NCBI GenBank assembly: GCA_017654855.1
Contig: CM030333.1
Location: 4,712,001-4,776,000, forward strand
DNA length: 64,000 bases
Origin: Podospora anserina
Lineage: Eukaryota
Direction of reading: 5' to 3'
Part shown: positions 26,901 to 43,087 of the stretch, one piece after another
How the letters are laid out: each line of letters begins with the position of its first letter
Numbering within the stretch: position 1 is the first letter of the stretch
The notes under the pieces: generated by a model
What the model was told of the DNA's origin: nothing
What the model saw: the letters and a program-made list of their open reading frames with translations, nothing else
The model's database searches: none
Translations under genes and position numbers: made by a program

Positions 26901-29900
26901 TTACTCAAACCTCCCGCCCCCAAACATCCCTCCCAAAGCCTTCTTCCTCTCCCCCACCATGGCCCCCTTGAACTTCTTGTCCTCCCTCCTCTTCTCCTTC
27001 TCCGCCAGTGCCGACAACCTCTCGTTGCCTCTGGCGAGGTAACCAACACCCGACTTCTTGGAGGCAGTCTGCTTGATCTTGATACCGCCGTCTTCAGCCC
27101 TGACTTGCTGCAGGTTGGATGTGGTGACACCGGTAGAAGACATGCCCGCTGACGAGGCAGATAGAGTAGACGAATTGGTAGTGGCACGGCGGAGAAGGGG
27201 TGGGATCTTGAACGAGGACGACCGATCAGATGAACCAGCGAACGCGAGCCGGGTGGAGGAAGAGGTATTGGATGATGTGCGCTTGAGGGAGATGCGGTCC
27301 ACGATTTGAGGCTTGCTGTTCTCTTTGTTGGAGGAGGCCGATGAGGGATGGGGGCCTTCACCCTCCGAGTCAGAGTCGAGAATCGTGGCGGGGATGACGG
27401 AGGAAGATTTGTAGCCAGGCCCGTCCTCGAGAAGGTTGGAGAGAGACTCCCTAATCTCGCCGATGTTGGAGGGCTTCTTCTTGTTGGTGAGGCCTGGCTT
27501 TGTGCGTCTTGGGTTGGTAGATTGCTGCTGCTGCTGCTGCTCTTGGGGTTGACTGTCGGGGATGGTGACTGCTTCATTAGAGGAGTCGCCAGTTGCAGAG
27601 TTCTGAGAGTCAAGACCTGGAGCAGGAGGAGGAGGCGCCCAGATGAAGTCCATTTCGTCGTCTGAACCACGGTCCTCGATGGTTTTGAGGAAGGCTTGGT
27701 TACGTGGGTTCTCGGCGACCTTGCTGATACGTTCATCGGCAAAGAGTGCACGCTGCATCTTGGCGAATTGGCGGCGCTTCATACGACGGAGGGCCTCCCC
27801 GCCGTCATCTTCATCATCGAGCTCATCCCAGTTGCCAGCGCGCTTGCGGCGCAGGAGACCAGTAGTGATGTCGTGGAAAAGCTTATTGACTTGCTTCTCG
27901 TCCGCAGCACGTTCACGGTCACTGAATACAAGTTAGTACCAAATTGACCCAAAGCCATGAGAAGAAACATACGCATAGAAAGAAGCCAACTTGCGCTCAT
28001 CCTCCGCCTTGTCAGCCGTCTCATCATCAATCATCTCTTGCACAGACTTTGCGTCCTCGTCGTCAGTGTCTTCGCCATCCGCACCACCCAAACCAGCATA
28101 CTCATCCTCGGACTCCTCGGCTTGCTCCTCCACCATCTCACGGGCCTTGCTCTTCTTCTTGTCAAATGCTTCCTTCCTCTTGCGCTCCTTTTCTTTACGG
28201 GCAGCCTCCTTCATGGCAAAAAATGCATTGTTGGCAGAAGAAGCAGCGTCGGTCTCGATGTCGTCCTTCATAATCTCATCTTGATCCTCGTTTTCAGAAG
28301 CAGCAACTTCAGCTCTCCGGCGAAGCTTACCAGTGCGCCGTACCAAGGGAGAGTCGGCTTGACTGTTTTGGTTCGCGGGAAGGGTCTCCACCGTAGAGGC
28401 AGGCTCCTCAATAAAGCTCCGCTGAAGAGGAGTAAAATTCTTGAAGCCAGAGTCTTGAGTTGGTTCGATCAGCTCTGATACCTGGGTAGCTTCAAACGTC
28501 TCATCCCGCAAGAACGAGTCAAAGCCGTGGACCTGAGACTGCGAGAACTGGATTTGGATGCCCTGTGTCTCTGCGTCTTGCTCACCAGGGGCTGGCTGGC
28601 TGTTCAAGACGACACCGTCCGCTGGTTCCTGAACAGATTGTGAGAACTGCGAATCGGGGAAGGCGCCCATATCAAACGTAGGCCTGGGTTGGGAGGGAGA
28701 ATCAGGAGGAGCCGAGCCTATCTGACTGTCGTCCATGGTGCCCTGGAAGATCTGGGTCAAACCCAGACCGGCAGGGCCAGCAACGGGAAGACCAGGAATG
28801 AACGTCTTGGTGGCTGAGCGCAAAACTGAGGTCGGGACGCTGGGGGAGGTATGTTGGCGGACAGAGGGTGACTTGGCTAGAATCTTCTTAGGATTAGGCG
28901 TAGCCTTGACAACACCCTCATCGGCCTCGTCCTCGTCATCAGACAGAACAGCAGTCTGTTTCCACGCCCTGCGACGGGCCTGCTTGGAGCTGGCTGTAGG
29001 AAGACCATCCTCGTCATCTGAGTTGGGCGCGTCAACCTCCTCCGTCTCCTCATCGGTAGATTCCTCAGCAGCATCGTCGATTAAAACACCACCATCCTCC
29101 ATCTCCTCCTCCTCGTCCTCATTTTCCTCCTCACTACCAGAGAGCTCAATCTCCGCCTCCTCCTCACCCTCACCAATCCAGCTCTCTCCATCATAATCAC
29201 TGTCATCCCAATCAAGTGGATCCTCCCCATTCTCCAACCGCTTCTTTCTCCTCTCCTCCTTGGCATCCGCCCTTTCCTTGGCCATGATCTCCTCAGCCTC
29301 TCTCCTCGCCTTGGCGACAATGTCCTCAACTTCTTGCTCTTCCTTTTCTCTCTCCTCAGCAGTCATGACAACGATACCCTTGGCCCGGAGAGACTCAAGG
29401 TGCCTTTCCCGCTCAAGCTTGGCCTGCGCTTTGGCCCGCTGCATCAGAGTCATCTGCAGCTCGCCCACCGTCATGGCAGGTTTCTGATGCTGCTGAAACT
29501 TTTGCTTGGTTGGTACCGGTCCCGCCTTCTTGTCCGGGTCATCCAGTTGAGCCAGACGGCGGAGGTTGAGAAGAGCTTTGGGCTCCTTGTTTTGGTTGGG
29601 GTTGACGCGAGAGAGAATCTGATCAATCTTGGAGGGCATTTGGACTTGGAGGTCGTCGTCCTCATCGTCGAGAGAAGCAGTTACTGTGTTGGCTCGGACA
29701 GAGAACTGCGGAAACTTGACGCGGAGATTACGCTTTACGCGGGGCATCTGGTGCTGCTCTTTGGCCTTGTCTTCGGCCTCAAACTCGGCGGCAGTGACTT
29801 TGCCTTTGCCCTTGTCGAGTTTCTTGGGGGCAGCAGCTGCTGAGGCGGCCATCTCTCCGACCGTGGGGAGCTCAACGTCACTGTTGTCCTGGAGTATCGT

Positions 29901-30911
29901 CTGTGGTGCTGGAGTCGCCTTCTCCTTCTCGCCCTCGGGAGGTGAGCTAGGAGGTGTGTTGTCCTCCTTGCGTTCAGCATCACTCTGCTGAACTGAAGCT
30001 GGGGTACCCGCCCGGCTAGAGCTGACTGGCGCAGCCTTCTCCTTTGGTGGTTCTGTTGAAGCAGCAGCGCCGGCAGGCTTGAAGTTGAACCTCTCGAACA
30101 GGGTGGATTTGGTAATCCTCTTCTTAATCTTGGCCTCGTGCGCAAGTTGCAAGGCTCTGGTCATCCGCTGCGTTTCTCTGTTCATCTCCTCCAATGCCTT
30201 CTTGCTAGCCTTGCGAGCGGAGGGCCGTGATTTGGCACCCTCTTGTGTGAGCTTGTGGCCACCCTCGTCGTCCGTAAAGTCCTCGGGATCCTCATCATCC
30301 ATAATGGCATTCCTTTCGGCCTTCTTGCGAGCCTCCTCTGCTTCCCGAGCAAGTCTTTCCGCCCTCTTCTTGGCAACCAGTGCCTCGAATTTCGCATTCT
30401 TGGCCAGACGAGAGGGGCTAGGGAGGTCCTCATCATAACTGCCAGCTTCTCCAGAGGGTTTCGAAGGCGATACAAAAAGTTCTTGTGGCGCTGGACTATG
30501 GTTCTGTTCTGGTGACGGGGATCGTGGCGCTGTTGCTGTTGGCTCTTGTTCTGGTGTTGCGCTCCGTTGGCGACGTGCCTTCAACTTTCTAGGCCGCGGG
30601 GCGATGATCTCGTATTCATCTTCGTCGTCATCCTCGGCTTCTTTTGTCGCAGCAGTCTTCTTGGGTGAAGAGGGTTTTGGGCTGTCCTTCTCAGATTCTG
30701 AATCGGCTGTGGGTTCTGTGTTTCCGCCCAGCATTCTCGCGGCCAGTTTGCCCCTTGGTCGTAAAATTTCCGCGTCGTCTTCTCCTTCACTGGTACTGCT
30801 GTCGCCTCCATAGTTGAGGAATCTGTTATGGGTGCGAATACGCGTGGTGGTAGGGCTGGCGAGGGGTGTCGCGCTGCCACTTCGCCTTGAGAGGGCGGGA
30901 GAGGAAGACAT
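26901..30911 (-). CDS. MRC1: Mrc1/claspin replication checkpoint mediator, 2 exons
   Basis: Acidic, low-complexity protein with SQ/TQ clusters, GLGLTQIFQGTM, and the MRC1 domain EQAEESEDEYAGLGG...DEKQVNKLFHDITTGLLRRKR. Intron 27972-27922. Confidence 0.88.
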
Positions 30912-31111
30912 GGCGAAGTATATTGCCAAATAAAGGACGAATTCGGCCTAAGAATTATAAGTGAAATGCTGAACTCCAAAGCATAACCCGATAACTGCTC
31001 GACAAGAAGTTCAAAATGGGTCAATGGGTGGAGAGGTGGTGTGGTGTTGTCGAGGAAGAGCACAGGGTATGGCGGCATAATACCTACCTATGTTTAAGTG
31101 CCCCACCACGG

Positions 31112-31146
31112 CGCGTCGCGATTGCTGGGAAGCGCGTCAGAACGCG
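31112..31146. promoter_or_regulatory. Cluster of MCB-like (ACGCG) elements upstream of MRC1
   Basis: CGCGT at 31112 and 31133 and ACGCG at 31142, ~200 bp upstream of the MRC1 ATG. MRC1 orthologues are MBF targets in yeasts. Confidence 0.55.
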
Positions 31147-31545
31147 ACCACTGTGAGCTGCAAACGGGAGTTCCGTTTCCACTTTTTGATGTGTGGCACC
31201 AGCCACCACCACCCCCATCAGGGGCTTAAAACCCACGTTAATTTTTCTAGAATTTTATAATTTAACTCTTTTTCCACTAGAAAAGGTATCCAAATATAGC
31301 TTTTTACTTTTGATTCAACTGTAAAACTCCTTTCTTTATAGTTATTATAGCTAAAGCTTAGTACCTGTTATTATTTTTATACGTACTTTTTTAAACCATA
31401 TTTTTATAATTGCTGTAATACTTTCTAAATTTATTTATATTATTTAAAAATATTTAACTTATTAATCAATAAATTAGGCTTTTAAACGAAATATAAAATT
31501 TATTTTATAAATTTTTATTAAATATATATTTTTATAATAATTAGA

Positions 31546-31983
31546 TGTCACAACCCTAGGGTATGGACGAGAGTAACGATTGGTTGTGGAACCACGGGAG
31601 CAGGGGCCAATCGGGAAAACATCTAGGAGAGCCAATTACAGGGAGGGACAGTAATTAGTACGATTAGAGCACTAATCTAACTGAGTAGGCTAAGCCGGTG
31701 TAATTAGTGTAATTAGGACACTGATTAGGCTAAGCGTAAGTAATTAGTATACTCGGGACACTAATCAAAGGAATTACGGCTAGGAAAAGAAGTCTATATA
31801 TACGGAGGAACTAGCTAGTATAGATAAACAGTTCCGCAGTATACAATTTACAGTTATATTTACGGTATCTTATATTTATATCGAGACATTTTATTATGCA
31901 CTATTTAGCTGCACTGAACTAATTATTAGAAATTACCTTTAACCAGTATCCCTTTTAAAGGTTTTGTATAGAGGTTCGTTATA
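31546..31983 (+). mobile_element. LTR family 1 (crapaud-like gypsy), copy A, 438 bp
   Basis: TGTCAC...GGTTCGTTATA. Shares the 3' half starting GTCTATATATACGGAGGAAC with the other copies; 5' half is unique; no matching TSD. Confidence 0.85.
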
Positions 31984-32253
31984 AAAAGGGTAATACCGAA
32001 AGTAAACTTTAAGTTAGATTAAGAATCTTCCTAGCTTTTCTTTTATACCTTTATAGCGATTAGGTACCTCGAGTTTAGTACGCTTTTTTTCCCTACGTAA
32101 GGTACTAATTTCTTAGTAAAGTATAGTGTTTTCTTACGTAAGAGTTTCGTAGGAAAAACGTGACTTATCTTTAAGCTTTTAAATATAAGCGAGAAGCTAG
32201 TCGATAGTAAATTAAGTAGATATCTTTACTTAAGTATTAACGTTTCCGGCTAT
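31984..32253 (-). pseudogene. RIP-inactivated gypsy gag N-terminus
   Basis: Frameshift-free reading whose stops are RIP-type TAA/TAG. De-RIPed it reads ..KLEVPDRYEGTKEKLGGFLIQLKVYFRYYP. Lies directly downstream of LTR B on the minus strand. Confidence 0.75.
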
Positions 32254-32393
32254 AGTATTAATTTAATACCTTTAACTTATTTATAATAGAGTTAAAGTAA
32301 GTATATAACGTGTAACGAACCCCTATATAGAACCTCTAAAAGGGATACTAATTAAAGGTAACTTTTAATAATTAATTTAGTGCGGCTAAATAG

Positions 32394-33178
32394 TAAAATA
32401 GTAAGAAAACATATAAATTAACCACAACACCACAAATATACTCTCAACAGGTCCCTAAATAGACACGCCTGCATAACAGTGACTCGCTCGCAGGCCGCAC
32501 TTCACTCAGGACAGATAAAAGACACTATAGGCTCGCAGGCCACATAATAAGCACCGGGTTGGCTTGATTAGAGGGCCAGGATTGCCTGCACGCGTGCAGA
32601 GCACAAAATATAAAGAAATAAAAGTCGATGTCTTGTCTAAAATAGAATGTCCGAAGCAGACCGCTTATATATATAACCCCTGAACCCCTGAGTCCTCTGA
32701 GAGCCCCGCTTCCTTACTCATACTCTTAGGCCTGTGGCCGCATGTCACAGTTAAGCCAAACAGGCAGGACGGACCGTGTGCGGGGCACAAGACGCACAGC
32801 CAATCGCTAACAGGACCAATCAGGATAAGGATACGCGATTATAGACAGCAGACTGGGAAGACACAGTGATCGCGGCAACACAACCAATAGGGAGCCACGG
32901 AGGATCATAGCGATCATTGTGATCATTGGGAACGAGCGGAATGATCACTATGATCAGGGCTTGGCACGAGGTCTATATATACGGAGGAACTGGCTGGTGT
33001 AGATAGACAGTTCCGCAGTATGCAATTCACAGCTTGTATTCACGGTATCTTGTGTTTACATTGAGACATCTTGTTGTGCGCTGTTTAGCCGCACCGAACC
33101 AATTGTCAGAAGTAGCCTTCAACCAGTATCCCTTTCAGAGGTTCTGTACAGGGGTTCGTCACACCGCACCCCAAACCA
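32394..33178 (-). mobile_element. LTR family 2 solo LTR, copy 1 (359 bp net), interrupted by family-1 LTR C
   Basis: Reverse complement of 34192-34550. Termini TGGTTTGGGG...TTTA (RIPed CA). Flanked by ATAG/ATAG. Confidence 0.8.
32743..33163 (+). mobile_element. LTR family 1 solo LTR, copy C, 421 bp, little RIP, 5-bp TSD
   Basis: TGTCAC...GTTCGTCACA flanked by CCGCA (32738-32742) and CCGCA (33164-33168). Confidence 0.92.
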
Positions 33179-33551
33179 ATAGCTGTCACGGACCTAATAT
33201 AAGTAGGGAGCGCGGGGCGCGACCGTCTAACCACTGGAACGGAAAAGTGGGGAAGTCGGATTATCACTAGTGCCAAGGGTAATAATCACGATTATCACTA
33301 GCCTTCGATAAACGACGAGTGATAATCGATATTATCACTGGTGATAATGGTGATAAACCGGTCTATATATACGGAGGAACTGGCTAGTGTAGATAGACAG
33401 TTCCGCAGTATGCAATTCAGTTTGTATTCACGGTATCTAGTGTTTACATTAAGACATCTTGTTGTGCACTGTTTAGCTACACCGAACCAATTGTCAGAAG
33501 TTACCTTTAACCAATATCCCTTTTAGAGGTTCTGTACAGGGGTTCGTCACA

Positions 33552-33830
33552 CTATTTAATACAATACGTTTAAAATTATATATTTTTTATATTTTACTTT
33601 TAAAACCCGTATTACCGGTAAGTAAGGCTAATACGTAAATAATAGCGGAGGACGAAGAAAAGGAGTACGATATAAAAGAAATATTAGATTTACAGTTTAA
33701 TAAAAGCTAATTAAAATATTTAATTAATTAATTAAGGTATCCGGTTATAAATAATTTATAGAAATTAAAAATATATTTTAATTATTTAAATAAATAAAAA
33801 GAATTTTATTAATAATATTTAAATTAATTA
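33552..33830 (+). pseudogene. RIP-inactivated integrase C-terminus and chromodomain
   Basis: De-RIPed reading FHISLLEP...EEEYDVEEILDSQ..QLKYLINWLGYP..NSWEP..EFHQQY in one frame. Confidence 0.8.
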
Positions 33831-34191
33831 AAGCTTAAATAAATAAAAATTAGTATTTAAGTTTACGGGTAATACTTATAAATCTAAATACCAAAGAACT
33901 TTAATAAAAATCGAATTTACATTTTCGATATAATAATCGATATACTACGTACTATATTATAAGGTTAGTAAATACGGAAGAATTTAGGCTTAACTAATAC
34001 CGTACGTTTTTACCGTAATAAAAAAAAATTAAAGATATACTATTAGTAAGAGAGTTAAAAAGAATTATACTTAAGCTATAGAGAAATATTTATAAACTTA
34101 AATATAAAAGAACTTTAACGGAAGTCGAACCTATACCTTTAACGTAATAGCCGACGTACTATATACTATATTATAAAGTTAAAAAGTATAA

Positions 34192-34550
34192 TAGTTTAAG
34201 GTGCGGCTACAAGCCTAAAAGTATAAGTAAAGAAGCGGGGCTCTTAAAAGACTTAGGGGTTTAAGAGTTATATATATAAGCGGTCTGCTTCGGACATTCT
34301 ATTTTAGACAAAACATCGACTTTTATTTCTTTATATTTTGTGCTCTACACGCGTGCAGGCAATCCTAGCCCTTTAATTAGGCTAACCCGGTACTTATTAT
34401 ATAGCCTGCGAGCCTATAATGTCTTTTATTTGTCCTGAGTAAAGTGCGGCCTGCGAGCGAGTCACTGTCACGCAAACGTATCTATTTAGGGACCTATTAA
34501 AAGTATATTTATAGTGTTGTGGTTAGTTTATATATTTTCTTATTATTTTA
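34192..34550 (+). mobile_element. LTR family 2 solo LTR, copy 2, 359 bp
   Basis: Colinear with copy 1, internal TATATATAAG box, flanked by ATAA (34188-34191) and ATAA (34551-34554). Confidence 0.8.
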
Positions 34551-34594
34551 ATAAAGAGATTTAAATATAAATAATACTATACGTTTTAATTATT

Positions 34595-35274
34595 TTAAAA
34601 AGTAAAAAGTATATTATTAATAATACTTTACGGAATTAAAAAGGAAAGACCGGCTATATTAAGGTTTAAAGGAAAGTTAAAAAGTTAGTTGAAGCCTAAA
34701 GAAGGATTTAGGGAGGAAAAGTCGGAAGGACCTAAAGGAATAAAATTAAAAGAAGAAGCGTCGTTAAACGATAGGATAATCGGCGCGGTTTACGTAACTT
34801 CCTTTTATTCGATACGTTCGGTAGCTTTTAACTTATCAAGAGAAAAGAGACCGCGAGCGACTATAACGGCTCCTTTATTTATAAGAAACTCGCGTTAACG
34901 ACGGACCTGCGATAAACGAATTAAAGTTTTAAAAGCTTTATATTAGTATTTAATTAAAAGAATTTCGGTATATTTCTCTTTCTTTTAAAAATAATATTAC
35001 TTTTATATAATCTTATTTATTAAAAAAAGATTAATAAAAAAAAAAAAGAGGTAACGGGAAACTTACGTAATAAAATAGGGACATTAGTACCGTTATATAA
35101 ATAATTATAACGTATATAAGCCCTATAACGCTTTACTTTATTTATTATACGGTAAAATAATTTTTATAAATTATATTACGAGTAAAGTATAACGAGGAAA
35201 CCGTTTTTAATAATATTTTAAATGAATTTAATATAGTATTATATAAATAATAATAAAAGTTTTATTATAAATAT
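34595..35274 (-). pseudogene. RIP-inactivated antisense gene in the retrotransposon 3' region: Zn(II)2Cys6-like cluster, coiled coil, acidic tail, one intron
   Basis: Six TAY codons (RIP products of TGY) at C-x2-C-x6-C-x8-C-x2-C-x6-C spacing (35184-35095). GTAAGT donor at 35066. Exon 2 reads RLSQVRR*REFLINKGAVIVARGLFSLDKLKATER with no frameshifts. Ends approximate. Confidence 0.7.
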
Positions 35275-36915
35275 AGTATTAAAATAATTTGTTAAAATAA
35301 GGTCGTTAAGAGCTCTGTACTATAGAGGTTTTAGGAAGGGGAAGTAATTACTTAAGGTCTTAGCGAGTTTCGGACTATACTGCTAAATATAACGATATGG
35401 TTATCGAAGGAAGAAAGTATAATAGGAATTTCCTATAAATATAGAGAAAAGTATATTAAAATATTATAGTTTTATATAAAGTATTGTAAATAATTAATTT
35501 ATTTAATTAATTTAACTTATTATTTTTCTTTTTAAAAAGAAAAAAGTAAGAAAATTATTACGATTAAAAAAAGGCTCTTTATAAATACCTAAATTTCTTT
35601 ATTATCCTTATTGTTCCCTATCGCTCGGTAACCCTAGTGGCTTAGATCTCTAGTTCGGTAAGGTTATAAAGTAATAAGCTTGCTAATAAGACGCTCGTAT
35701 TACTTATAAAGCTTTTCGTGGCTTAACCTCGTAGCCGATAAGATACTCGTATTGCTTATGAGGCTTCTTATACCACGGTCTTATTACTCGGAGGTCCGGT
35801 GAGGAATCCTAGGAGTTTAAAAGCGCTCGAGCCTCTATAAGCGAGCCGTTAAGAGCTTAAGGGCGAGCCGCTGTGGGCGAGCCGTTGGGAACGCGAGTGG
35901 GGGAGCTGTTGGGAGCAATATGGGCGCAGAATTCCATAAACAAGTGCTGTAAAATCCATGAATAAATGCTGCATTTTAACATATAGTATTAACTAGGCTA
36001 TTAAAAGATAAGAAGGAAGATTTATAAAGAAAAGAGGGGAAACGAAAAAAATATATATAATCGATAAAACTAAGCTAACGGGACGTTAACCTAAAGGAGG
36101 GGTATTATATTACGGACCTAATATAAGTAGGGAGCGCGGGGCGCAACTATTTAACTATTGGAACGGAAAAATAAAGAAGTCGGATTATTATTAATATTAA
36201 AAGTAATAATTAAAATTATTATTAGCCTTCGATAAACGATAAGTAATAATTAATATTATTATTAATAATAATAGTAATAAACCGGTCTATATATACGGAG
36301 GAATTAATTAATATAAATAAATAGTTCCGTAATATATAATTTATAATTATATTTACGGTATTTTATATTTATATTAAAATATTTTATTATATATTATTTA
36401 GCTATACTAAACTAATTATTAGAAGTTACCTTTAACCCGTATCCCTTTTAGAGGTTCTATATAGGGGTTCGTTACAATAGTGTATAATAAAATATTTTAA
36501 TATAAATATAAAATACCGTAAATATAAACTATAAATTATATATTGCGGAACTATTTATTTATATTAGTTAGTTCTTCTGTATATATAGACCGGTTTATTA
36601 CTATTATTACTAGTAATAATATCGATTATCACTTATAGTTTACCGAAAGCTAGTAATAATCGTGATTATTACCCTTAGCACTAGTAATAATCCGACTTCC
36701 CCACGTTTCCGTTCCAGTAGTTGGACGGTCGCGCCCCGCGCTCCCTACTTATGTCAGATCCGTGACACAGAAGCTGTATTTTAATATCTTTTTTACTATT
36801 ATAATTAATAGTAATTTAACGATATTAATCTATTATAGTTATATAAATACACAGATTTTTTATATTAATTAAAATTTAATAATTTTTAATAATCAAATAC
36901 TTTTCCGGAGCTAAT

Positions 36916-37280
36916 TATTACAATCGTGGATGAAGAGCTAACGTACGGGGCGCGGGACGCTCCTAGCTAATCATTACTGACTTATCGAAAGTGGAGCGAC
37001 GGGATCACGATGAGCGTAGTAAACCACAGGAAGGAAAGGTAATCCAGATCACCTTTAGGGGGAACGTGATCCAAGTGATCTACGGGTCTATATATACGGA
37101 GGAACTAGATAGCTGGTAGATAGTTCCGCAGTATGCAATACAAGTCACATTCGTTGGTATCAGACTATTGTGATTGAGACAAGCCATTGTTGTGCACTGT
37201 TTAGCTGCACCGAACCATTTGTCTAGAAGCACCTTGAACTGAGTATCCCTCTCAGAGGTTCTGGATCGGGGTTCGTCACA
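36916..37280 (+). mobile_element. LTR family 1, diverged copy G, 365 bp
   Basis: TATTACAATC (RIPed TGTCAC)...GGGGTTCGTCACA. Conserved GTCTATATATACGGAGGAAC and TTCCGCAGTATGCAAT; distinct 5' half. Confidence 0.85.
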
Positions 37281-37838
37281 TGAAGTCCATATCCTCTCGG
37301 GCTGTTTTTAATTGGGTATCGGTCATAAAATACAGGCAGCCCTAGAAGGTGAGGACCACAGCCAGTAACAGAATATTCTTTCGCTCTCTCTCTCACTCTC
37401 TCACACACACACTCTTTTAGTCTCCCATGAATGCTTGCCTTCCTCTCAACCCACAACTACGCTTTTCAACCTTGTTCAAACAACTTACCATCCATCAATC
37501 CTCAAGCCCCCATGTTCTACAATATCAAACAGGATATACAAGAAAATGCAGTGAAGGGAAAAAAAGGCTTTAAATGCAACCCCCTGACTCCAGGTATAAG
37601 CGCAAAGCAAAGATAACCGCTCGCATCTTACCCCATGTACGCCAATTCGCCAAATGACATCGCCTATGTCGCTCTCGCCAGAAAGCAAACGCCAGCCAGG
37701 AGTGCCATCCACAACATAGATATAATACCCACCATCCTACCCCAAATAAACCAAAAATAAATGACCACAGGGGAATCTGAAAGCACAGGAAACAAATGAG
37801 AAAATACAAGAGCAATGACAAGCAAGTCTTGCAAAGTC

Positions 37839-39464
37839 TTACCCCACAGCCAACGTCGAATCCAATACCGAATTCAAGAAATCGCCATCTGCCGGGTCGG
37901 CTCCCTCCCACCAAAGATCGTTGTCGATATCCATGGCATCTGGCCCGTGACCATGCCCTCCTATTCCATTTGTAAGTGGTGGGTCTGTGGTTGCCGTGGC
38001 CAGGGCTTTGCTGCCACCAGCTGCTGTTGGTAATGGTATTAACGACGGCATTCCGTTCACCATTGTCGTCGTGCCGCCCATCTCGACATCCTCATCGTCG
38101 ATTTCGCCTAATATCCTTCCACCTTCCTTCTTGATATACGTGTAAGATTCCCAATCTTCCAACTCTCCTTCTCGGTAGTCGTTGACAATCGTTTTCACTA
38201 TTGTCGGGAAGTTTGCCATTCCACAGTCGCCCACATCCAACGCCAACCTCAAATCTGTCATTCCAAGAGGTCCTCTTTCGCTCGCAGCTTTGGCTTCGAT
38301 CGGCAACAGCCCGCTCTTGTCCCTGGTCAGCTCTCCCCTTTGGAAGGCTTCTTCTTCCTTTGCCAGTTGCTTCTTGTATTTGTGCGTCTGAACCCATGCA
38401 CCCCCTGGCCCAAAGCCAGCATTTCCAGAGTCGCCGGGTCCGTTGCTGCGAGTACGACTGAATACCTGCGTAAGAACTTCTTTTATAAACGTGTCGGTGG
38501 CGATAGACATGAACTGGGCGGCTTCTGGCGCGTGGCCGGAGACGAGACCAGATTCATAGCAAAAGGGCAACATGCGGGCTTCGATACTAGATACGTCAGG
38601 GAATTCGCCAGACTCGACGGCAAGAGGTTGGGCAAAGCGTTTTCGGATCTCGAGGTCAAAGTCTACACGCTGTTAGTGAAGAGTCAAATAAGGGGTAAGG
38701 AAGGGGTACATACTCATGCGACTGAGACCCCCTGCTGCGCTTGCTGGTACCTCGGTGGTCTTGGCAGGTTTGATGCGGCTCTGGTCTGTAAATACATCTG
38801 CCAAGGAGTTGAATGGGTCGAACTAGATAAATGGTCAGTAACTCCAGCGTGGATAGCCGTGGTCGTAAGAAGGCTTACATCGTTTTGTACAATGTCCTTG
38901 ATCCTCCGCCTGTCTCGTGCCGGCAACTGCATGACCTCCCCCTTTAACCTCCTTTCGGCAGCATCACCAGACACGGGCTTGTTGCCTGCCGTGGTGGACG
39001 GCTTGTCATTGGCACTGACCCAGGGCGCAAGGCCCTGGTCGGGCATCTCCCTCGTGACATTTCCATAGATGGCAGCAATGAGCTGGTTATGTAGATGTTC
39101 TCTTTGTCCGTCAGGGGAAGCTAATATTGGGTCTATGCGCTCGCTGAACTCGGCTTGATTGAGGCGGCCTGTATGTAAACATGGTCAGCAAGTTTGGCCC
39201 GGCATGTATGATGCAGAGCCGCTGGCGCATACCGATCAGGAAGTTTGTGATTGTTTCTTTGTAAATAACCCATTGTTCGGGGCCAATGGTGGACTTTAAC
39301 TGCGTGTATATCGGCTCGAGGTCTATGCGGGCGGGTATAAGCTGGCTCGTTTTGGGAGTCTTGTGCAGCGATGGGGCCGAGACATTGATGGATTTGTTGG
39401 CGAGAATGGGGGTAGAGACGCTGATGGAAGGCCGGCTCAGGGCGGCGGGGTCGATGTCGACCAT
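37839..39464 (-). CDS. HFI1: SAGA subunit Ada1/Hfi1 (Tad1 family), multi-exon
   Basis: [24 protein letters not shown], intron 39232-39169, [66 protein letters not shown]. Confidence 0.85.
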
Positions 39465-40019: not shown

Positions 40020-43000
40020 ATGTCTCACGCCCCGCGCAATCGAATCTCGAATGCAATCGACAGTCTGATCACCCACCTGGTGCCTAGCAACCCCCACGAC
40101 GACGAGCAGACAGCTCAAGAGAGGCATGATGCTTGCTTTGAGCTTGTCCGGGCCATTTTTGAGCGGTGAGCATTTTTCATCTGATACTCTTTTGGCCTAG
40201 ACAAAGCTAATTAGAAAGCAACAGGCCTAATTCTCCCTCGATATCGGCCGACGTAAACCATGCTTCGGACCTCATCAAGCGGAAGCTCATACACAGCAAC
40301 CCTAGCCAGGCCCTACGCTTCTCCAACCTCTATACCCGACTTTTGTCACTGCCAGTCCTGAACCAAAAATGGGCCATTTTATATCTCCTATATCAGCTCT
40401 CTGACTCGCCTGATCCCAATGAGCCTCCACCACCACCAAGGCAGCCAGCAGCACCACATGGGTTGACATCGCGGGAGCCAAGCTTCCGGGACCGAGAACT
40501 TCAAGCGCAGATCCTTCGGGAGCAGGAAGAGAACCAGGTAGAGGCAGAGAACTACCAAGGGCCAGTACCGGCAGAGCCAAGTTTCCGAGAGCCAGCTTCT
40601 CGTGAGCCAAACTTCCGTGAATCAGTAGCACAGCGGGCGGCGGGACGAGCAACAGGCCGGTCGACGGCAACAGCAGAGTCAAAAACGTCGACACCCGCAC
40701 CACCACTGGTATCAGAAGAAGAGGCTGTAAACAATGTGTTTGCCCCAGGTGGTTTGAAAAAGCTCCCAACCGAAAGGCCACGGCGAAACACCAATGCCGA
40801 AGAAGCTCGCTCGCAGCCTGGTGCGGTAGACGGATCTACCAAGAAGAGCACAAGGGACGTTTCAATCAAGTCAAACTTGCTCGCAGACAACTCATTGGAG
40901 TTTGAGCCTTCTGAGATGGGTCTGTTGAGAGACCTTCCTTTCACTCTTCAGGGATTATCATCAACAACTCTTCCCTTCACCAGGGATACTGTTTTGAAAC
41001 TGCCGCCAACTTTGCCGCTACCAATAGTGTCACTGTTGCACACTTTGGCCGAGCCTTCATTATTATATCGAGGGCTTGCAAATTTTGTCAAGTCACCAGC
41101 AAAGGGGTTACTCGGCCAGAGCTTGCGGGCAGCCATCAACAATGAGCTTCGGTCATATCTCACTCTTGTGGCAACGCTGGAGGCGCAGATTCGACGGGCA
41201 TTGTCATCCCTTGATGAGGCAGCACCACGAGGCGGCATCGGGAAAGCCGGTGTCACGTTGAAGAGATGCGTTGTTTGGACGAGAGAGGCGACCATGGGCT
41301 TGCGGCTGATGTCTTTGATATCAGAGGAGAGTTATAGTAAACAAGGCGGACAACTGATCAGTCTGATTCACGGCTTTTCTACCTCTCATGGTGACCCCGT
41401 GGTGGCTGCTTTTGCTGAACGCTTGCTGGCCGACGTCACCCGGCCGTTTTACGACATTCTTCGGCGTTGGATATACGACGGTGAGCTATCGGATCCCCAT
41501 CTGGAGTTCTTCGTCCGCGAACAAAACCCCAACAATGAGAAACAAAACGAGTCCAAGGCCAAAGGCCAAGCTAGTGTGTGGAACTCCAAGTACGAAGTCG
41601 TCGACGCCATGGTACCCAGTATCATGACCCCCGACTTTGCCCAAAAGGTCTTTTTGATTGGAAAGTCCCTCAACTTCATCCGCCACAGCTGCGGCGACAG
41701 CCAGTGGGTCGACGCCTATAGCAAAACCTCGTCAAAGGAGCTCAAGTACGGCGACACGGCCACGCTCGAGAAGTGGATCGACGACGCCTACAAGACCACC
41801 ATGCAGCGCCTCATGACGCTCATGAACACCCGCTTCCGTCTGTTTGACCACCTCCAAGCCCTGAAGAACTATATCCTTCTCGGCCAGGGCGACTTTATCG
41901 CCTTGCTGATGGAATCCCTCGCCGCGAACCTCGACCGCCCAGCTGGCGCACAATACCGCCACACCCTCACTGCCCAGCTCGAACACGCCATCCGCGGCTC
42001 CAACGCCCAGTATGATTCCGACGAGGTCCTCCGCCGCCTAGACGCCCGTATGCTTCAACTGAGCCACGGCGATATTGGCTGGGATTGTTTCACGCTCGAA
42101 TACAAAATCGATGCCCCTGTCGATGTGGTAGTCACCGAATGGGGAAACCGTCAGTACCTCAAAGTCTTCAACTTTCTCTGGCGGATCAAACGCGTCGAGT
42201 TTGCTCTGGCATCCACCTGGAGAAAATGCATGACGGGCGCGAGGGGAGTGCTGCAATCCAACGACGAGACAGTCCTCCAGACGTGGAAATCCACCAGGGG
42301 AACTCTCGCGGAGATGATCCATTTTGTTGGTCAACTGCAATACTACATTTTATTTGAAGTCATCGAGTCCAGCTGGGGGGAGCTGCAGGAGAACATCCGA
42401 AAAGAAGACTGCACACTGGATGACTTGATCACGGCTCACACCAAGTACCTCACCTCCATCACCCACAAAGGACTTCTCGGTGCCCGCCGGAGACAGCACC
42501 ACGACGCGCAAAAGGAAGCCGCCTCGTTGGGCCGTGACGCATCAGAAGTTGAAGACCGCAACTCGTACATGGTGCAGCTGTCGCTCCTGCTGCGAAACAT
42601 GCTCGACTACAGAGACAGCGTGGACGGGTTATACTCGTGGTCGGTGTCTGACTTTACCCGCAGACAAGAAGTCGACACGGTCTCGCTGCTGCGAAAACAC
42701 CGGCCCAATTCGGGAGACATGGAGAGTTCTGTCGGGCCGGACGATCCCTTTTTTGGTTCTGCCGGGGGAGTGGGAGGGAACAACAATATTAAGAGCGAGT
42801 TCCCCGCGCTGCAGGAACGGCTGAAGCAGTTAGGGGTGAGTTTCAGGCAGAGGCTGCAGATCTTGCTGGGGGATCTGGCGTATCAGCCTGATGTGGACAT
42901 GCGCTTCCTGGGGGTGTCGATGAACTTTAATGATGTGTATCAGCCGGTTAGGAGGAAGAGTGGGAAGGCTGGGGCTGGGGGGAGTGGTGTTTCGGCTGGT

Positions 43001-43087
43001 GGTGGGGAGAAACAACAACAGCAGCAGCAGCAGCAGGGAGGGAATGTGGGGAGTGTGAATGTTTCGTTTTCTGCTTCAAGGGCTTAG
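40020..43087 (+). CDS. SPC98: Gamma-tubulin complex component GCP3 (Spc98/Alp6), 2 exons
   Basis: LLRDLPFTLQG, HGFSTSHGDP, WIYDGELSDPHLEFF, KVFLIGKSLNFIR, LKNYILLGQGDFI, GWDCFTLEYKIDAP, YLKVFNFLWRIKRVE, FEVIESSW. Intron ~40166-40224; C-terminal polyQ. Confidence 0.92.

What the first reader, a model, noticed from the sequence alone, without database searches (positions are those of the whole stretch)
34595..35274. Retrotransposon-borne antisense gene with Zn(II)2Cys6 (GAL4-type) architecture, hidden by RIP
Seen: between the chromodomain relic and the PPT/3' LTR of the D-E element, the minus strand reads GGT TTC CTC GTT ATA CTT TAC TCG TAA TAT AAT TTA TAA AAA TTA TTT TAC CGT ATA ATA AAT AAA GTA AAG CGT TAT AGG GCT TAT ATA CGT TAT AAT TAT TTA TAT AAC GGT. 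Reverting TpA to TpG puts six Cys at C-x2-C-x6-C-x8-C-x2-C-x6-C. A GTAAGT donor (35066) and a ~47-nt intron with a degraded acceptor follow. Exon 2 has no frameshifts, only TAA stops, a coiled-coil-like segment (RLSQVRRQREFL.NKGAVMVARGLSSLDEL after de-RIP) and a D/F/S/P-rich tail. Established: this spacing fits the fungal Zn2Cys6 consensus; RIP turns TGY into TAY; an antisense intron is not spliced from the sense genomic RNA, so it can survive retrotransposition. Inference: this gypsy family carries its own small transcription-factor-like gene, possibly regulating its LTRs or host genes. I do not know of a description for this family, and ORF finders miss it here.
Basis: partly seen in the sequence, partly recalled or inferred. 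Interest (0 to 1): 0.85.

Follow-up and report, generated by a model that had tools for sequence, protein, structure and literature searches.

The report
Retrotransposon's own antisense zinc-cluster gene, RIP-killed
A mutated relic in this fungal genome is a copy of a small gene that a whole group of gypsy-type retrotransposons carries backwards between its polymerase gene and its last repeat; the protein looks like a miniature GAL4-type transcription factor, which suggests these elements bring their own regulator.

Summary
On the minus strand, 35274-34595 is a RIP-destroyed two-exon gene. Un-mutated relatives exist: 5 phmmer hits, then a 90-protein family that is annotated only as hypothetical proteins in Sordariomycetes. 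Twelve of 13 inspected loci have the same phase-1 intron. A long helix follows the cluster.

In 24 metagenomic loci the gene lies tail-to-tail with the SH3-chromodomain end of a Ty3/gypsy pol. This holds for 21 of 24, and the other three lack downstream flank. The start codon sits about 125-145 bp inside the 3' LTR. pN is below pS in 119 of 119 pairs.

The fold model's 13 best PDB matches are all Zn2Cys6 DNA-binding domains, but with weak scores. Pfam Zn_clus is only sub-threshold, and the basic residues between Cys2 and Cys3 are missing. So the fold is probably GAL4-like, while DNA binding and any regulatory role are inferred.

The closest precedent is the antisense gene brtn of Botrytis Boty elements. 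I could not test homology to it. The window's copy is dead.

The parts
35067..35274 (-). Exon 1 of the RIP-inactivated accessory gene. It has 69 codons plus the first base of a split Leu codon. The start codon relic is ATA (from ATG) at 35274-35272. There are four in-frame TAA codons.
   Evidence: Gapless codon alignment to L003/L007 exon 1. hhalign against the family profile A3 aligns columns 17-67 to 17-67, 37% identity, P 0.0076. blastn against L003 gives E 4.6e-4, with 24 C/G>T/A changes against 1 reverse transition.
35095..35184 (-). Relic of the six-Cys cluster. The Cys codons now read TAC 35184-82, TAT 35175-73, TAC 35154-52, TAT 35127-25, TAT 35118-16 and TAT 35097-95.
   Evidence: Each stands opposite TGC/TGT in L003 and L007. 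The six Cys are invariant in 58 of 58 relatives.
35020..35066 (-). Phase-1 intron of 47 nt: GTAAGT donor, TTAAT (from CTRAC) branch-like site, acceptor degraded from AG to AA.
   Evidence: Read. The same position and phase, with GT..CTRAY..YAG, appear in 12 of 13 loci printed. L006 has no intron.
34595..35019 (-). Exon 2: long-helix (coiled-coil-like) region, LDELE motif, the DW motif (now FN*) and a tail. There are nine in-frame TAA codons before the TAA at 34597-34595, which is taken as the stop. The true stop is uncertain; it could be 34630-34628.
   Evidence: phmmer finds 5 hits, best 1.2e-18. Sequences. Stop positions.
33546..33809 (+). Relic of the C-terminal SH3/chromodomain part of the gypsy pol. 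It is truncated at its 5' side by LTR D.
   Evidence: tblastn of L001 pol residues 652-739 gives E 2.6e-9, and L008 pol gives 1.8e-8. Pfam itself finds no Chromo in the RIPed reading.
34188..34550 (.). Nested high-copy repeat (U) inserted between the pol end and the gene end. A second copy lies inverted at 32391-32742.
   Evidence: Self-blastn gives 88.9% over 352 nt. Other genomic copies join 34187 directly to 34551: 4 contigs in X1, 2 in X4, 5 in X6, 0 in X17. Summed depth here is about 10 times that of the gene region.
35271..35980 (.). A 710-nt segment between the start codon and the PPT region. Some other copies lack it. It is bounded by a repeated ATATAGTATTAA.
   Evidence: Joint 35270>35981 is seen in 2 contigs of X1 and 1 each of X4, X6 and X17, with up to 12 letters fitting both sides. 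Sequence.
36093..36102 (+). Polypurine tract AAAGGAGGGG, 5 nt upstream of the 3' LTR.
   Evidence: Read.
36108..36477 (+). 3' LTR (E), 370 nt, with RIPed TATTAC (from TGTCAC) at the start and GTTACA at the end.
   Evidence: Direct repeat with 33184-33552. Sequence.
33184..33552 (+). LTR D, 369 nt, TGTCAC...GTCACA. It abuts the truncated pol relic, so it is not the intact 5' LTR of a full element.

Best explanation
Window 34595-35274 (minus strand) is a dead, RIP-mutated copy of a conserved accessory gene of a clade of Ty3/gypsy chromoviruses of Sordariomycete fungi.

In intact elements the gene lies on the strand opposite to gag-pol. Its start codon is about 125-145 bp inside the 3' LTR boundary. 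It has one short phase-1 intron. Its last 30-60 codons overlap the tail of pol (shown).

The product is 190-215 aa. It consists of a basic N-terminal helix, an invariant six-Cys module with Zn2Cys6 spacing and a predicted GAL4-like fold, one helix of about 85 residues, and a disordered acidic tail with a conserved D-W motif (shown by alignment and model).

Inferred steps: the gene is transcribed inward from the 3' LTR side; the intron survives retrotransposition because it is antisense to the genomic RNA; and the protein acts as a zinc-cluster nucleic-acid-binding regulator of the element's own LTR or of host promoters. This would resemble the way HTLV-1 HBZ works (a comparison recalled from memory, not tested).

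In this window the element is 5'-truncated, carries nested insertions, and is inactivated by RIP. The gene does nothing here.
For: Relatives:
- 5 hits.
- 1 longer hit, P0006, which carries the Cys module.
- 12 hits.
- 90 hits at E<=1e-3. All named ones are Sordariomycete 'hypothetical proteins', and 5 have the UniRef name 'Zn(2)-C6 fungal-type domain'.

Cys module: invariant in 58 of 58 and in 47 of 47.

Position in the element:
- The ORFs next to the gene are pol ending in SH3_Tf2-1 + Chromo in L001, L008, L012, L014 and L024. Gag lies beyond the LTR in L008, L012, L014 and L024.
- 21 of 24 loci have the pol C-terminus antisense at the gene's 3' end.
- The two ORFs overlap by 89-194 nt in 7 of 7 loci measured.
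- LTR-to-start distance is 125 nt in L005 and 143 nt in L017. The window has 833 nt, or 123 nt without the 710-nt extra segment.

Selection: pN<pS in 91 of 91 exon-1 pairs and 28 of 28 exon-2 pairs. dN/dS is 0.15-0.60 in the 15 listed lowest-dS pairs of each exon.

Intron: 12 of 13 loci.

Fold:
- The exon-1 model has pLDDT 85.3, with short helices starting at each C-x2-C.
- Foldseek ranks 1-13 of 16 are Pho7, HAP1, GAL4 (rmsd 2.6 A, 36 columns, 30% identity), PPR1, PUT3 and AlcR.
- LAC9 aligns over 33 of 33 residues at rmsd 1.8 A.
- The full-length model has helix 67-150 at pLDDT 91-99.

Copy number: identical proteins are annotated at several loci of one genome, Thermothelomyces thermophilus (seen on 7 contigs) and Verticillium dahliae (4 contigs).

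Window copy. Other RIP-diverged copies exist in the same organism.
Against: - Pfam Zn_clus does not reach its threshold. Only 5 of 16 members match at E<=10, the best at 0.0028, and P0006 does not match at all.
- A family profile finds no Zn2Cys6 chain in the PDB at E<=10.
- Foldseek E-values are 1.1-8.7, and all VIA Z-scores are 2.5 or less. The fold match is therefore qualitative.
- The loop between Cys2 and Cys3 reads x-S-x-G-L-x and lacks the basic residues that contact DNA in GAL4-type proteins (that feature is recalled from memory). The usual Pro before Cys4 is also absent.
- No expression, zinc-binding, DNA-binding or dimer data exist.
- In the window the pol relic and the gene end are about 785 nt apart, not overlapping. 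Only part of that gap is explained by the 363-nt insert and a tandem duplication of about 215 nt.
- L006 lacks the intron.
Confidence: 0.8

Rival explanations
1. The six TAY codons are a chance pattern in AT-rich RIPed DNA, and there is no gene.
For: TAY codons are frequent here: 136-159 Tyr codons per roughly 2100-codon frame. In 300 shuffles, 12.7% gave at least one such pattern. Three further TAT codons in exon 1 come from Arg codons, not Cys.
Against: The exon aligns without gaps to un-mutated homologues with Cys at all six places. Exon 2 finds relatives at 1.2e-18. The intron is shared.
Confidence: 0.01
2. It is a relic of a host Zn2Cys6 gene, or a one-off captured fragment, that happens to lie inside this element copy.
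For: This copy is rearranged. It has a nested 363-nt repeat and a 710-nt extra segment, and it is 5'-truncated. Family members are annotated as ordinary hypothetical host proteins.
Against: 21 of 24 independent loci have the same tail-to-tail arrangement with pol, at 34-75% protein identity; the other 3 have no usable flank. The ORFs overlap pol. Several other copies in the same organism contain the segment. Identical proteins occur at several loci per genome.
Confidence: 0.03
3. The gene is a true element gene, but the Cys module is not a sequence-specific DNA-binding domain. It would be a zinc-binding protein-interaction or RNA-binding module with a long helix, serving retrotransposition itself (for example particle assembly, nuclear entry or integration targeting) or countering host silencing.
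For: The basic Cys2-Cys3 loop and the Pro before Cys4 are missing. Pfam is sub-threshold. The published antisense ORFs of plant elements and of Boty have no known function (PMC7264820, passage read).
Against: The best structural matches are all DNA-binding Zn2Cys6 domains. The near-invariant R before Cys4, the V-R-R-G-R-S between Cys5 and Cys6, and a basic N-terminal helix supply positive charge. A cluster followed by a long helix and an acidic tail is the layout of small GAL4-type activators (recalled from memory).
Confidence: 0.3
4. The gene is simply the Sordariomycete homologue of brtn, the antisense gene already described in Boty-like elements of Botrytis and Sclerotinia. The kind of gene would then be already in print.
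For: The position and strand are the same, between pol and the 3' LTR (PMC7264820). A Monilinia transcript with a chromodomain matched both truncated Pol and BRTN (PMC5987419). That fits a tail-to-tail overlap like the one seen here.
Against: None of the 90 family hits carries the name BRTN or comes from a named Leotiomycete. That search scored only the 8000 candidates sharing the most words. No passage read mentions a zinc cluster in brtn. The original paper is not held.
Confidence: 0.3

Closest known systems
[quoted passage not shown] 2011, Virology 417:248; known here only through citing passages in PMC7264820, PMC8365987, PMC4227169 and PMC5987419)
   Same: A fungal chromodomain-bearing gypsy element with an extra gene on the opposite strand between pol and the 3' LTR. 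It is reported in many copies, and its function is unknown.
   Different: Sequence relationship is untested. No cited passage mentions a zinc cluster, an intron or an overlap with pol. The hosts are Leotiomycetes, whereas all named members here are Sordariomycetes.
Antisense additional ORFs between pol and the 3' LTR of plant LTR retrotransposons (Grande, RIRE2, Retand, PvRetro13; review PMC7264820, passages read)
   Same: The position and orientation match. They are conserved within families to a degree similar to other element proteins, and their function is unknown.
   Different: These are plant elements, largely of non-chromovirus lineages. No relation to fungal Zn2Cys6 domains is reported in the passages read.
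GAL4-type Zn(II)2Cys6 binuclear-cluster transcription factors (Pfam PF00172; structures of GAL4 1d66, PPR1 1pyi, PUT3 1zme, HAP1 1hwt, LAC9 1cld, Pho7 6e33)
   Same: The spacing is C-x2-C-x6-C-x8-C-x2-C-x6-C. The predicted fold has two short helices, each starting at a C-x2-C. A long helix follows the cluster. The Cys5-x-R-x-G-x-x-Cys6 pattern is present. The domain type is restricted to fungi.
   Different: The protein is only about 200 aa and has no fungal 'middle homology' region. The basic Cys2-Cys3 loop and the Pro before Cys4 are absent. It falls below the Pfam threshold. It is encoded by a retrotransposon rather than by a host gene.
HBZ of HTLV-1, an antisense-encoded bZIP factor transcribed from the 3' LTR
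   Same: A dimerising, transcription-factor-like protein encoded on the minus strand of a retroelement, starting near the 3' LTR, with a spliced mRNA.
   Different: It has an unrelated fold (bZIP), comes from an animal retrovirus, and has a demonstrated function. Here the function is only inferred.

Membership tests
Zn(II)2Cys6 binuclear cluster (GAL4-type, Pfam PF00172) | Six Cys spaced C-x2-C-x6-C-x5-12-C-x2-C-x6-8-C | tested here: met
   C31, C34, C41, C50, C53 and C60 are invariant in 58 of 58 sequences and in 47 of 47. In the window the six TAY codons stand opposite TGC/TGT of L003 and L007.
Zn(II)2Cys6 binuclear cluster (GAL4-type, Pfam PF00172) | Match to the Pfam Zn_clus model above its curated cut-off | tested here: not met
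   Zn_clus is the family matched by the most members, but only 5 of 16 at E<=10, the best at 0.0028. P0006 has no Zn_clus row. The precomputed Pfam column is '-' for all 90 hits. The window read through with X gives none.
Zn(II)2Cys6 binuclear cluster (GAL4-type, Pfam PF00172) | Fold: two short helices, each beginning at a C-x2-C, packed around the cluster | tested here: inconclusive
   The AF2 model has pLDDT 85.3, with H32-37 and H51-56. Foldseek ranks 1-13 of 16 are all Zn2Cys6 DNA-binding domains, but at E 1.1-8.7. VIA places LAC9 1cld at Z 2.3 and rmsd 1.8 A over 33 of 33 residues, among unrelated rows of equal Z. The profile search of PDB sequences finds no Zn2Cys6 chain at E<=10.
Zn(II)2Cys6 binuclear cluster (GAL4-type, Pfam PF00172) | Basic residues between Cys2 and Cys3 that contact DNA (feature recalled from memory) | tested here: not met
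   The family consensus is C-x-x-x-G-L-x-C, or C-x-S-x-G-L-x-C in close members. Conserved basic residues lie instead before Cys4 (R49) and between Cys5 and Cys6 (R55, R56, R58).
Zn(II)2Cys6 binuclear cluster (GAL4-type, Pfam PF00172) | Coiled-coil dimerisation element after the cluster | tested here: inconclusive
   A single helix 67-150 is predicted at pLDDT 91-99. Whether it dimerises was not established.
Zn(II)2Cys6 binuclear cluster (GAL4-type, Pfam PF00172) | Binds two zinc ions and specific DNA | not testable with these tools
   This needs metal analysis and DNA-binding assays.
Antisense additional ORF between pol and 3' LTR of LTR retrotransposons (as in Boty brtn and plant aORFs) | Lies between the end of pol and the 3' LTR on the opposite strand | tested here: met
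   Window: pol relic at 33546-33809 (+), gene at 35274-34595 (-), PPT at 36093, LTR at 36108. Loci: 21 of 24. Pol domains. LTRs.
Antisense additional ORF between pol and 3' LTR of LTR retrotransposons (as in Boty brtn and plant aORFs) | Present across copies and lineages and conserved as a protein | tested here: met
   There are 24 loci at 34-75% identity. pN<pS in 91 of 91 and 28 of 28 pairs. Other copies exist in the window's organism.
Antisense additional ORF between pol and 3' LTR of LTR retrotransposons (as in Boty brtn and plant aORFs) | Sequence homology to BRTN itself | not tested
   No BRTN sequence was available. The paper is not held. No hit is named BRTN.
Ty3/gypsy chromovirus | gag, protease, RT, RNase H, integrase and a C-terminal chromodomain between LTRs | tested here: met
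   Loci: RVT_1, RT_RNaseH, Integrase_H2C2, rve, SH3_Tf2-1 and Chromo, plus Retrotrans_gag and zf-CCHC. Window: only the SH3/chromodomain relic, LTRs and PPT remain.
RIP (repeat-induced point mutation) relic | C>T/G>A bias, raised TpA/ApT and depleted CpA+TpG | tested here: met
   Indices are 1.44 and 0.09, against 0.62 and 1.27 in the flanks. There are 24 C/G>T/A changes against 1 reverse transition in exon 1. Codon derivability is 43 of 69 against 13 of 69 in the reverse direction.

The most novel reading that the evidence does not exclude
A clade of fungal chromoviruses encodes its own minimal GAL4-type transcription factor. It would be made from a spliced antisense transcript that starts at the 3' LTR. 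It would bind as a dimer to sites in the element's LTR, or in host promoters, to set when the element is transcribed. This would be a fungal counterpart of HTLV-1 HBZ, and a route by which Zn2Cys6 domains move between host and mobile DNA.
Probability: 0.3. Interest if true: 0.85.

Novelty: new variant of a known kind. Interest (0 to 1): 0.72.

Why it matters
Extra antisense genes in LTR retrotransposons are known in plants and in one fungal case, but none has an assigned biochemical role. Here the extra gene has a recognisable architecture: a six-Cys cluster with a predicted GAL4-like fold, a long helix and an acidic tail. It is under purifying selection, overlaps pol, and sits in the same position in every locus that could be checked. 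That makes the question 'what do these antisense genes do?' directly testable with a DNA-binding assay.

It also re-labels dozens of 'hypothetical proteins' in Sordariomycete genomes as transposon genes, some of them named Zn(2)-C6 domain proteins. This matters for counts of transcription factors and for repeat masking.

Finally, it shows that a gene erased by RIP can be recovered by reading TpA back to TpG/CpA, and that the result can be verified against relatives.

Tried and rejected
- No whole genome is held for the window, so copies could not be aligned directly.
- Pfam on X-read translations of the AT-rich block and of 33551-36111 gave no Zn_clus, RVT, rve or Chromo hit. One minus frame of the full 31000-37300 block was scanned, and all three minus frames of 33551-36111.
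- The look-up of sequencing runs listed no RNA holder, so expression could not be examined.
- Read laying showed only 40 of 815 differing positions, and its cap is one call. The letters that other copies carry at the six Cys codons therefore remain unseen. The one shown position in the cluster, 35102 (TAT>TGT in 5 contigs of X1), looked at first like a seventh Cys. It is an Arg codon caught half-way (CGT>TGT>TAT).
- Complex prediction, as a homodimer with zinc, gave no verdict: 0.29 against a mark of 0.32.
- The PDB sequence-profile search found no Zn2Cys6 chain at E<=10.
- The VIA-align wide search gave only Z<=2.5.
- The ESM Atlas gave only unnamed Ascomycota clusters with no Pfam family.
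- The first related-loci run failed because A1 had no conserved stretch. It was repeated with A2.
- Literature: searches found no paper linking a Zn2Cys6 or zinc-cluster protein to an LTR retrotransposon, and no paper naming four locus tags of the family. The survey 'LTR Retrotransposons in Fungi' (PMC3248453, term search only) has no occurrence of antisense, zinc or additional ORF. The brtn paper is not held. Supplementary figures of PMC8365987, which draw brtn and the domains of BcGypsy1, are closed and may bear on the brtn question.
- I considered and dropped a search for CGG-type binding sites in LTRs as too speculative without binding data.
Full report
**Setting.** The window is fungal DNA. 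Genes of about 53% G+C lie on either side: an MRC1-like ORF at 27933-30947 (-), SAGA-Tad1 at 37839-38672 (-), and a gamma-tubulin complex protein at 40211-43087 (+). Between them is an AT-rich block at about 31.0-37.3 kb, with 27-41% G+C per kb. RIP indices in the block and in the finding are extreme.

The block is a pile of copies of one LTR of 369-370 nt:
- full copies D (33184-33552) and E (36108-36477);
- partial copies at 31789-31984, 32968-33164 and 37075-37280;
- inverted pieces at 32310-32394 and 36476-36767.

A polypurine tract, AAAGGAGGGG, lies 5 nt before LTR E.

**The observation.** The quoted minus-strand sequence is there and starts at 35202. The six TAY codons have the stated spacing, and GTAAGT is at 35066. 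By itself this was suggestive only. It is the single such pattern in six frames of the 6.3-kb block, but 12.7% of 300 dinucleotide shuffles gave at least one. Pfam found nothing in the stop-masked translations.

**Un-mutated relatives.** Five proteins had E<=0.001. The best was P0001 at 1.2e-18 and 52% identity.

A search for longer relatives of P0001 gave one protein, P0006 (247 aa). Its upstream part...NGFVVMPCTWCSSQGLTCRMLEKVKRCEACVRRGRSCDGSGVPISS, aligns column by column with the window's exon 1.

Further searches gave 12 proteins and then 90 (profile search). All named ones are 'hypothetical proteins' of Sordariomycetes: Chaetomium, Corynascus, Staphylotrichum, Canariomyces, Thermothelomyces, Parathielavia, Apiospora, Neoarthrinium, Pseudomassariella, Verticillium, Cordyceps, Metarhizium, Fusarium, Thyridium, Annulohypoxylon and a member of the Xylariaceae. 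Five carry the UniRef name 'Zn(2)-C6 fungal-type domain-containing protein'.

In an alignment of 58 sequences the invariant columns are P30, C31, C34, C41, C50, C53, C60 and D61. In 47 full-length proteins G57, L112, R114 and R116 are invariant as well.

**The window's copy, codon by codon.** Exon 1 of the window (35274-35068) and exon 1 of loci L003 and L007 all have 69 codons and align without gaps.
- The six TAY codons stand opposite TGC/TGT.
- The other TAT codons, at positions 14, 56 and 58, stand opposite Arg codons CGC/CGT.
- The four TAA codons stand opposite Arg, Gln, Trp and Gln codons.
- 43 of 69 window codons derive from the L003 codon by C>T/G>A alone, against 13 of 69 in the reverse direction.

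In other genomic copies position 35102 reads so as to give TGT at codon 58 (5 contigs in run X1). That codon is an Arg caught half-way (CGT>TGT>TAT), not a seventh Cys.

At the DNA level, exon 1 matches L003 (E 4.6e-4; 24 C/G>T/A changes against 1 reverse transition) and exon 2 matches L007 (E 2.3e-7). hhalign of the RIPed exon 1 against the family profile aligns residues 17-67 to 17-67 at 37% identity and P 0.0076, although every Cys is now Tyr.

**Gene model.**
- Start codon relic ATA at 35274-35272.
- Exon 1 runs to 35067.
- Intron at 35066-35020 (47 nt).
- Exon 2 runs from 35019 to a TAA at 34597-34595. Nine TAA codons precede it, so the true stop is uncertain.

**Intron.** In 12 of 13 loci whose junction I printed, exon 1 ends one base into a Leu or Val codon. 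It is followed by GT..., a CTRAY branch-like site, and YAG. The window has GTAAGT...TTAAT...AA at the same place, the RIPed form. L006 has no intron.

**Is it part of the retrotransposon?** A scan of JGI metagenome contigs with the family patterns gave 24 loci (283 pattern matches, 24 confirmed).

The large ORFs beside the gene are Ty3/gypsy pol, with RVT_1, RT_RNaseH, Integrase_H2C2, rve, SH3_Tf2-1 and Chromo. They lie on the opposite strand in L001, L008, L012, L014 and L024. Gag ORFs lie beyond the LTR in L008, L012, L014 and L024, and L019 has a gag-RT-RNase H ORF (10 ORFs scanned).

Testing all 24 loci with the last 170 residues of five pol proteins gave a clear result. In 21 loci the SH3/chromodomain end of pol lies on the opposite strand, overlapping the gene's 3' end or within about 300 bp of it. 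The remaining three (L011, L018, L019) have only 167, 2 and 26 bp of downstream sequence.

In the 7 intact loci measured, the two ORFs overlap tail-to-tail by 89-194 nt, and by exactly 128 nt in three of them.

Where both LTRs are on the contig, the start codon lies 125 nt (L005) or 143 nt (L017) inside the 3' LTR boundary.

In the window, a tblastn of intact pol proteins finds the SH3/chromodomain relic at 33546-33809 on the plus strand (E 2.6e-9).

Two details differ from the intact elements:
- The start codon is 833 nt from LTR E. Other copies in the same organism skip 35271-35980, which would leave 123 nt.
- A 363-nt high-copy repeat (34188-34550) sits between the pol end and the gene end. 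Other copies join 34187 to 34551 directly.

LTR D abuts pol inside its SH3 domain. This copy has therefore lost gag and most of pol, and D is not an intact 5' LTR.

**Other copies in the organism.** Contigs of four DNA runs from four studies were laid at 80% likeness. They show several diverged pieces over 34551-35206 in each genome, for example 87-104 differing letters in 521-551 bases. Transitions dominate overwhelmingly. Only 40 of 815 differing positions were printed, so the letters at the six Cys codons in those copies were not seen.

**Selection.** I used Nei-Gojobori counts on in-frame exon segments of loci without stops, 14 for exon 1 and 8 for exon 2. pN was below pS in 91 of 91 and 28 of 28 pairs. 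dN/dS was 0.15-0.60 in the 15 listed lowest-dS pairs of each exon. Part of exon 2 overlaps pol, which constrains its synonymous sites. Exon 1 does not overlap pol.

**Is it a GAL4-type domain?**

Evidence for:
- The Cys spacing matches.
- The near-invariant C-V-R-R-G-R-S-C resembles the usual C-x-K/R-x-G-x-x-C of the second half of the cluster. That resemblance is recalled from memory.
- Zn_clus is the Pfam family matched by the most members.
- Five members have UniRef names pointing to it.
- An AlphaFold model of exon 1 (pLDDT 85.3) places short helices at each C-x2-C.
- Of 16 Foldseek matches in the PDB, ranks 1-13 are all Zn2Cys6 DNA-binding domains: Pho7, HAP1, GAL4, PPR1, PUT3 and AlcR.
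- LAC9 aligns over its whole 33 residues at 1.8 A.

Evidence against, or weak:
- The Zn_clus matches are sub-threshold (5 of 16 members, best E 0.0028).
- A family profile finds no Zn2Cys6 chain in PDB sequences.
- The Foldseek E-values are above 1, and all VIA Z-scores are 2.5 or less.
- The Cys2-Cys3 loop lacks basic residues, and no Pro precedes Cys4.

The full-length model has a basic N-terminal helix (9-24), the cluster, one helix 67-150 at pLDDT 91-99, and a disordered tail with the conserved D-W. I conclude that a Zn2Cys6-like fold is likely. The family is a divergent, unclassified branch, and DNA binding is unproven.

**How it probably works.**

Shown:
- a conserved, selected, intron-bearing gene on the antisense strand;
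- its start close to the 3' LTR;
- its end overlapping pol.

Inferred:
- It is transcribed inward from the 3' LTR region.
- The intron is invisible to splicing of the sense genomic RNA, so it is copied at each retrotransposition.
- The protein dimerises through its long helix and binds nucleic acid through the cluster and its basic flanks, regulating the element or host genes.

HBZ of HTLV-1 is the obvious analogue, recalled from memory. In this window the gene is dead.

**What is known.** Antisense extra ORFs between pol and the 3' LTR are reviewed for plants. One fungal case is cited there: brtn of Boty elements in Botrytis and Sclerotinia (PMC7264820, passages; also PMC8365987, PMC4227169 and PMC5987419, passages). 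The original paper is not held, and I had no BRTN sequence, so homology is open.

Six literature searches found no paper linking a zinc-cluster protein to an LTR retrotransposon, and no paper naming four locus tags of the family. The 2011 survey of fungal LTR elements has no occurrence of 'antisense', 'zinc' or 'additional ORF'.

Identical proteins of the family are annotated at several loci of Thermothelomyces thermophilus and Verticillium dahliae, as expected for a transposon gene that annotators took for a host gene.

**Verdict.** The novelty lies in the nature of the antisense gene and its conservation across a chromovirus clade, not in the existence of antisense genes as such.

Noticed in passing
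window 34188-34550 and 32391-32742 (inverted): A repeat of about 360 nt, 88.9% alike between its two window copies. Summed contig depth over it is about ten times that of the gene region, so there are perhaps 100 or more copies per genome. One copy is nested in the element. The other abuts the last 85 nt of an inverted LTR. Its nature (solo LTR of another family, or a MITE) was not determined.
   Followed up: partly
window 35271-35980: A 710-nt, less RIPed segment between the gene's start codon and the PPT region. Some other copies lack it. It is bounded by a repeated ATATAGTATTAA. The minus strand has a long stretch with few stops (about 35960-35600). It could be an insertion with a target duplication, or a deletion between repeats in the other copies.
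   Followed up: partly
window 33845-33974 and 34059-34188: A tandem duplication of about 215 nt period, 70-72% alike, between the pol relic and the nested repeat. Other genomic copies skip 33911-34128.
   Followed up: partly
window 33250-33360 (LTR D; also the other LTR copies): The LTR carries six or seven GATAA/TTATC-type motifs (GATTATCAC, GTGATAAT) upstream of a TATATATAC box. After the box comes an inverted repeat, CGGAGGAACTG...CAGTTCCG. These could be GATA-factor sites and a hairpin or palindromic binding site.
   Followed up: no
window 36108-36767: LTR E is followed tail-to-tail by an inverted, truncated LTR (36476-36767). The whole 31.0-37.3 kb block holds at least seven LTR pieces in both orientations, which points to repeated insertion into one spot followed by RIP.
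   Followed up: partly
L008 1-99 and 7437-7535; L012 1-287 and 6453-6739: The contig ends repeat (100% and 96.9% identity). These contigs are therefore circular permutations of one element with a single LTR. That could be assembly collapse of the two LTRs, a tandem array, or a one-LTR circle.
   Followed up: no
L006 857-1441: This locus has the accessory gene without the intron (..CDGTGVPLQSLHRIQ.. is contiguous). It also has a variant C-T-R-A-A-C-A-C in place of C-V-R-R-G-R-S-C.
   Followed up: no
P0009: One family member carries the JGI name 'Tfp pilus assembly protein PilO'. This is evidently a mis-annotation of a fungal transposon gene on a metagenome contig.
   Followed up: no
L005, L009, L010, L017, L021, L022: Several metagenomic copies are themselves RIP-like: 41-46% G+C, with in-frame stops and Cys>Tyr changes in the same gene. 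The same decay seen in the window therefore recurs in other fungi.
   Followed up: no
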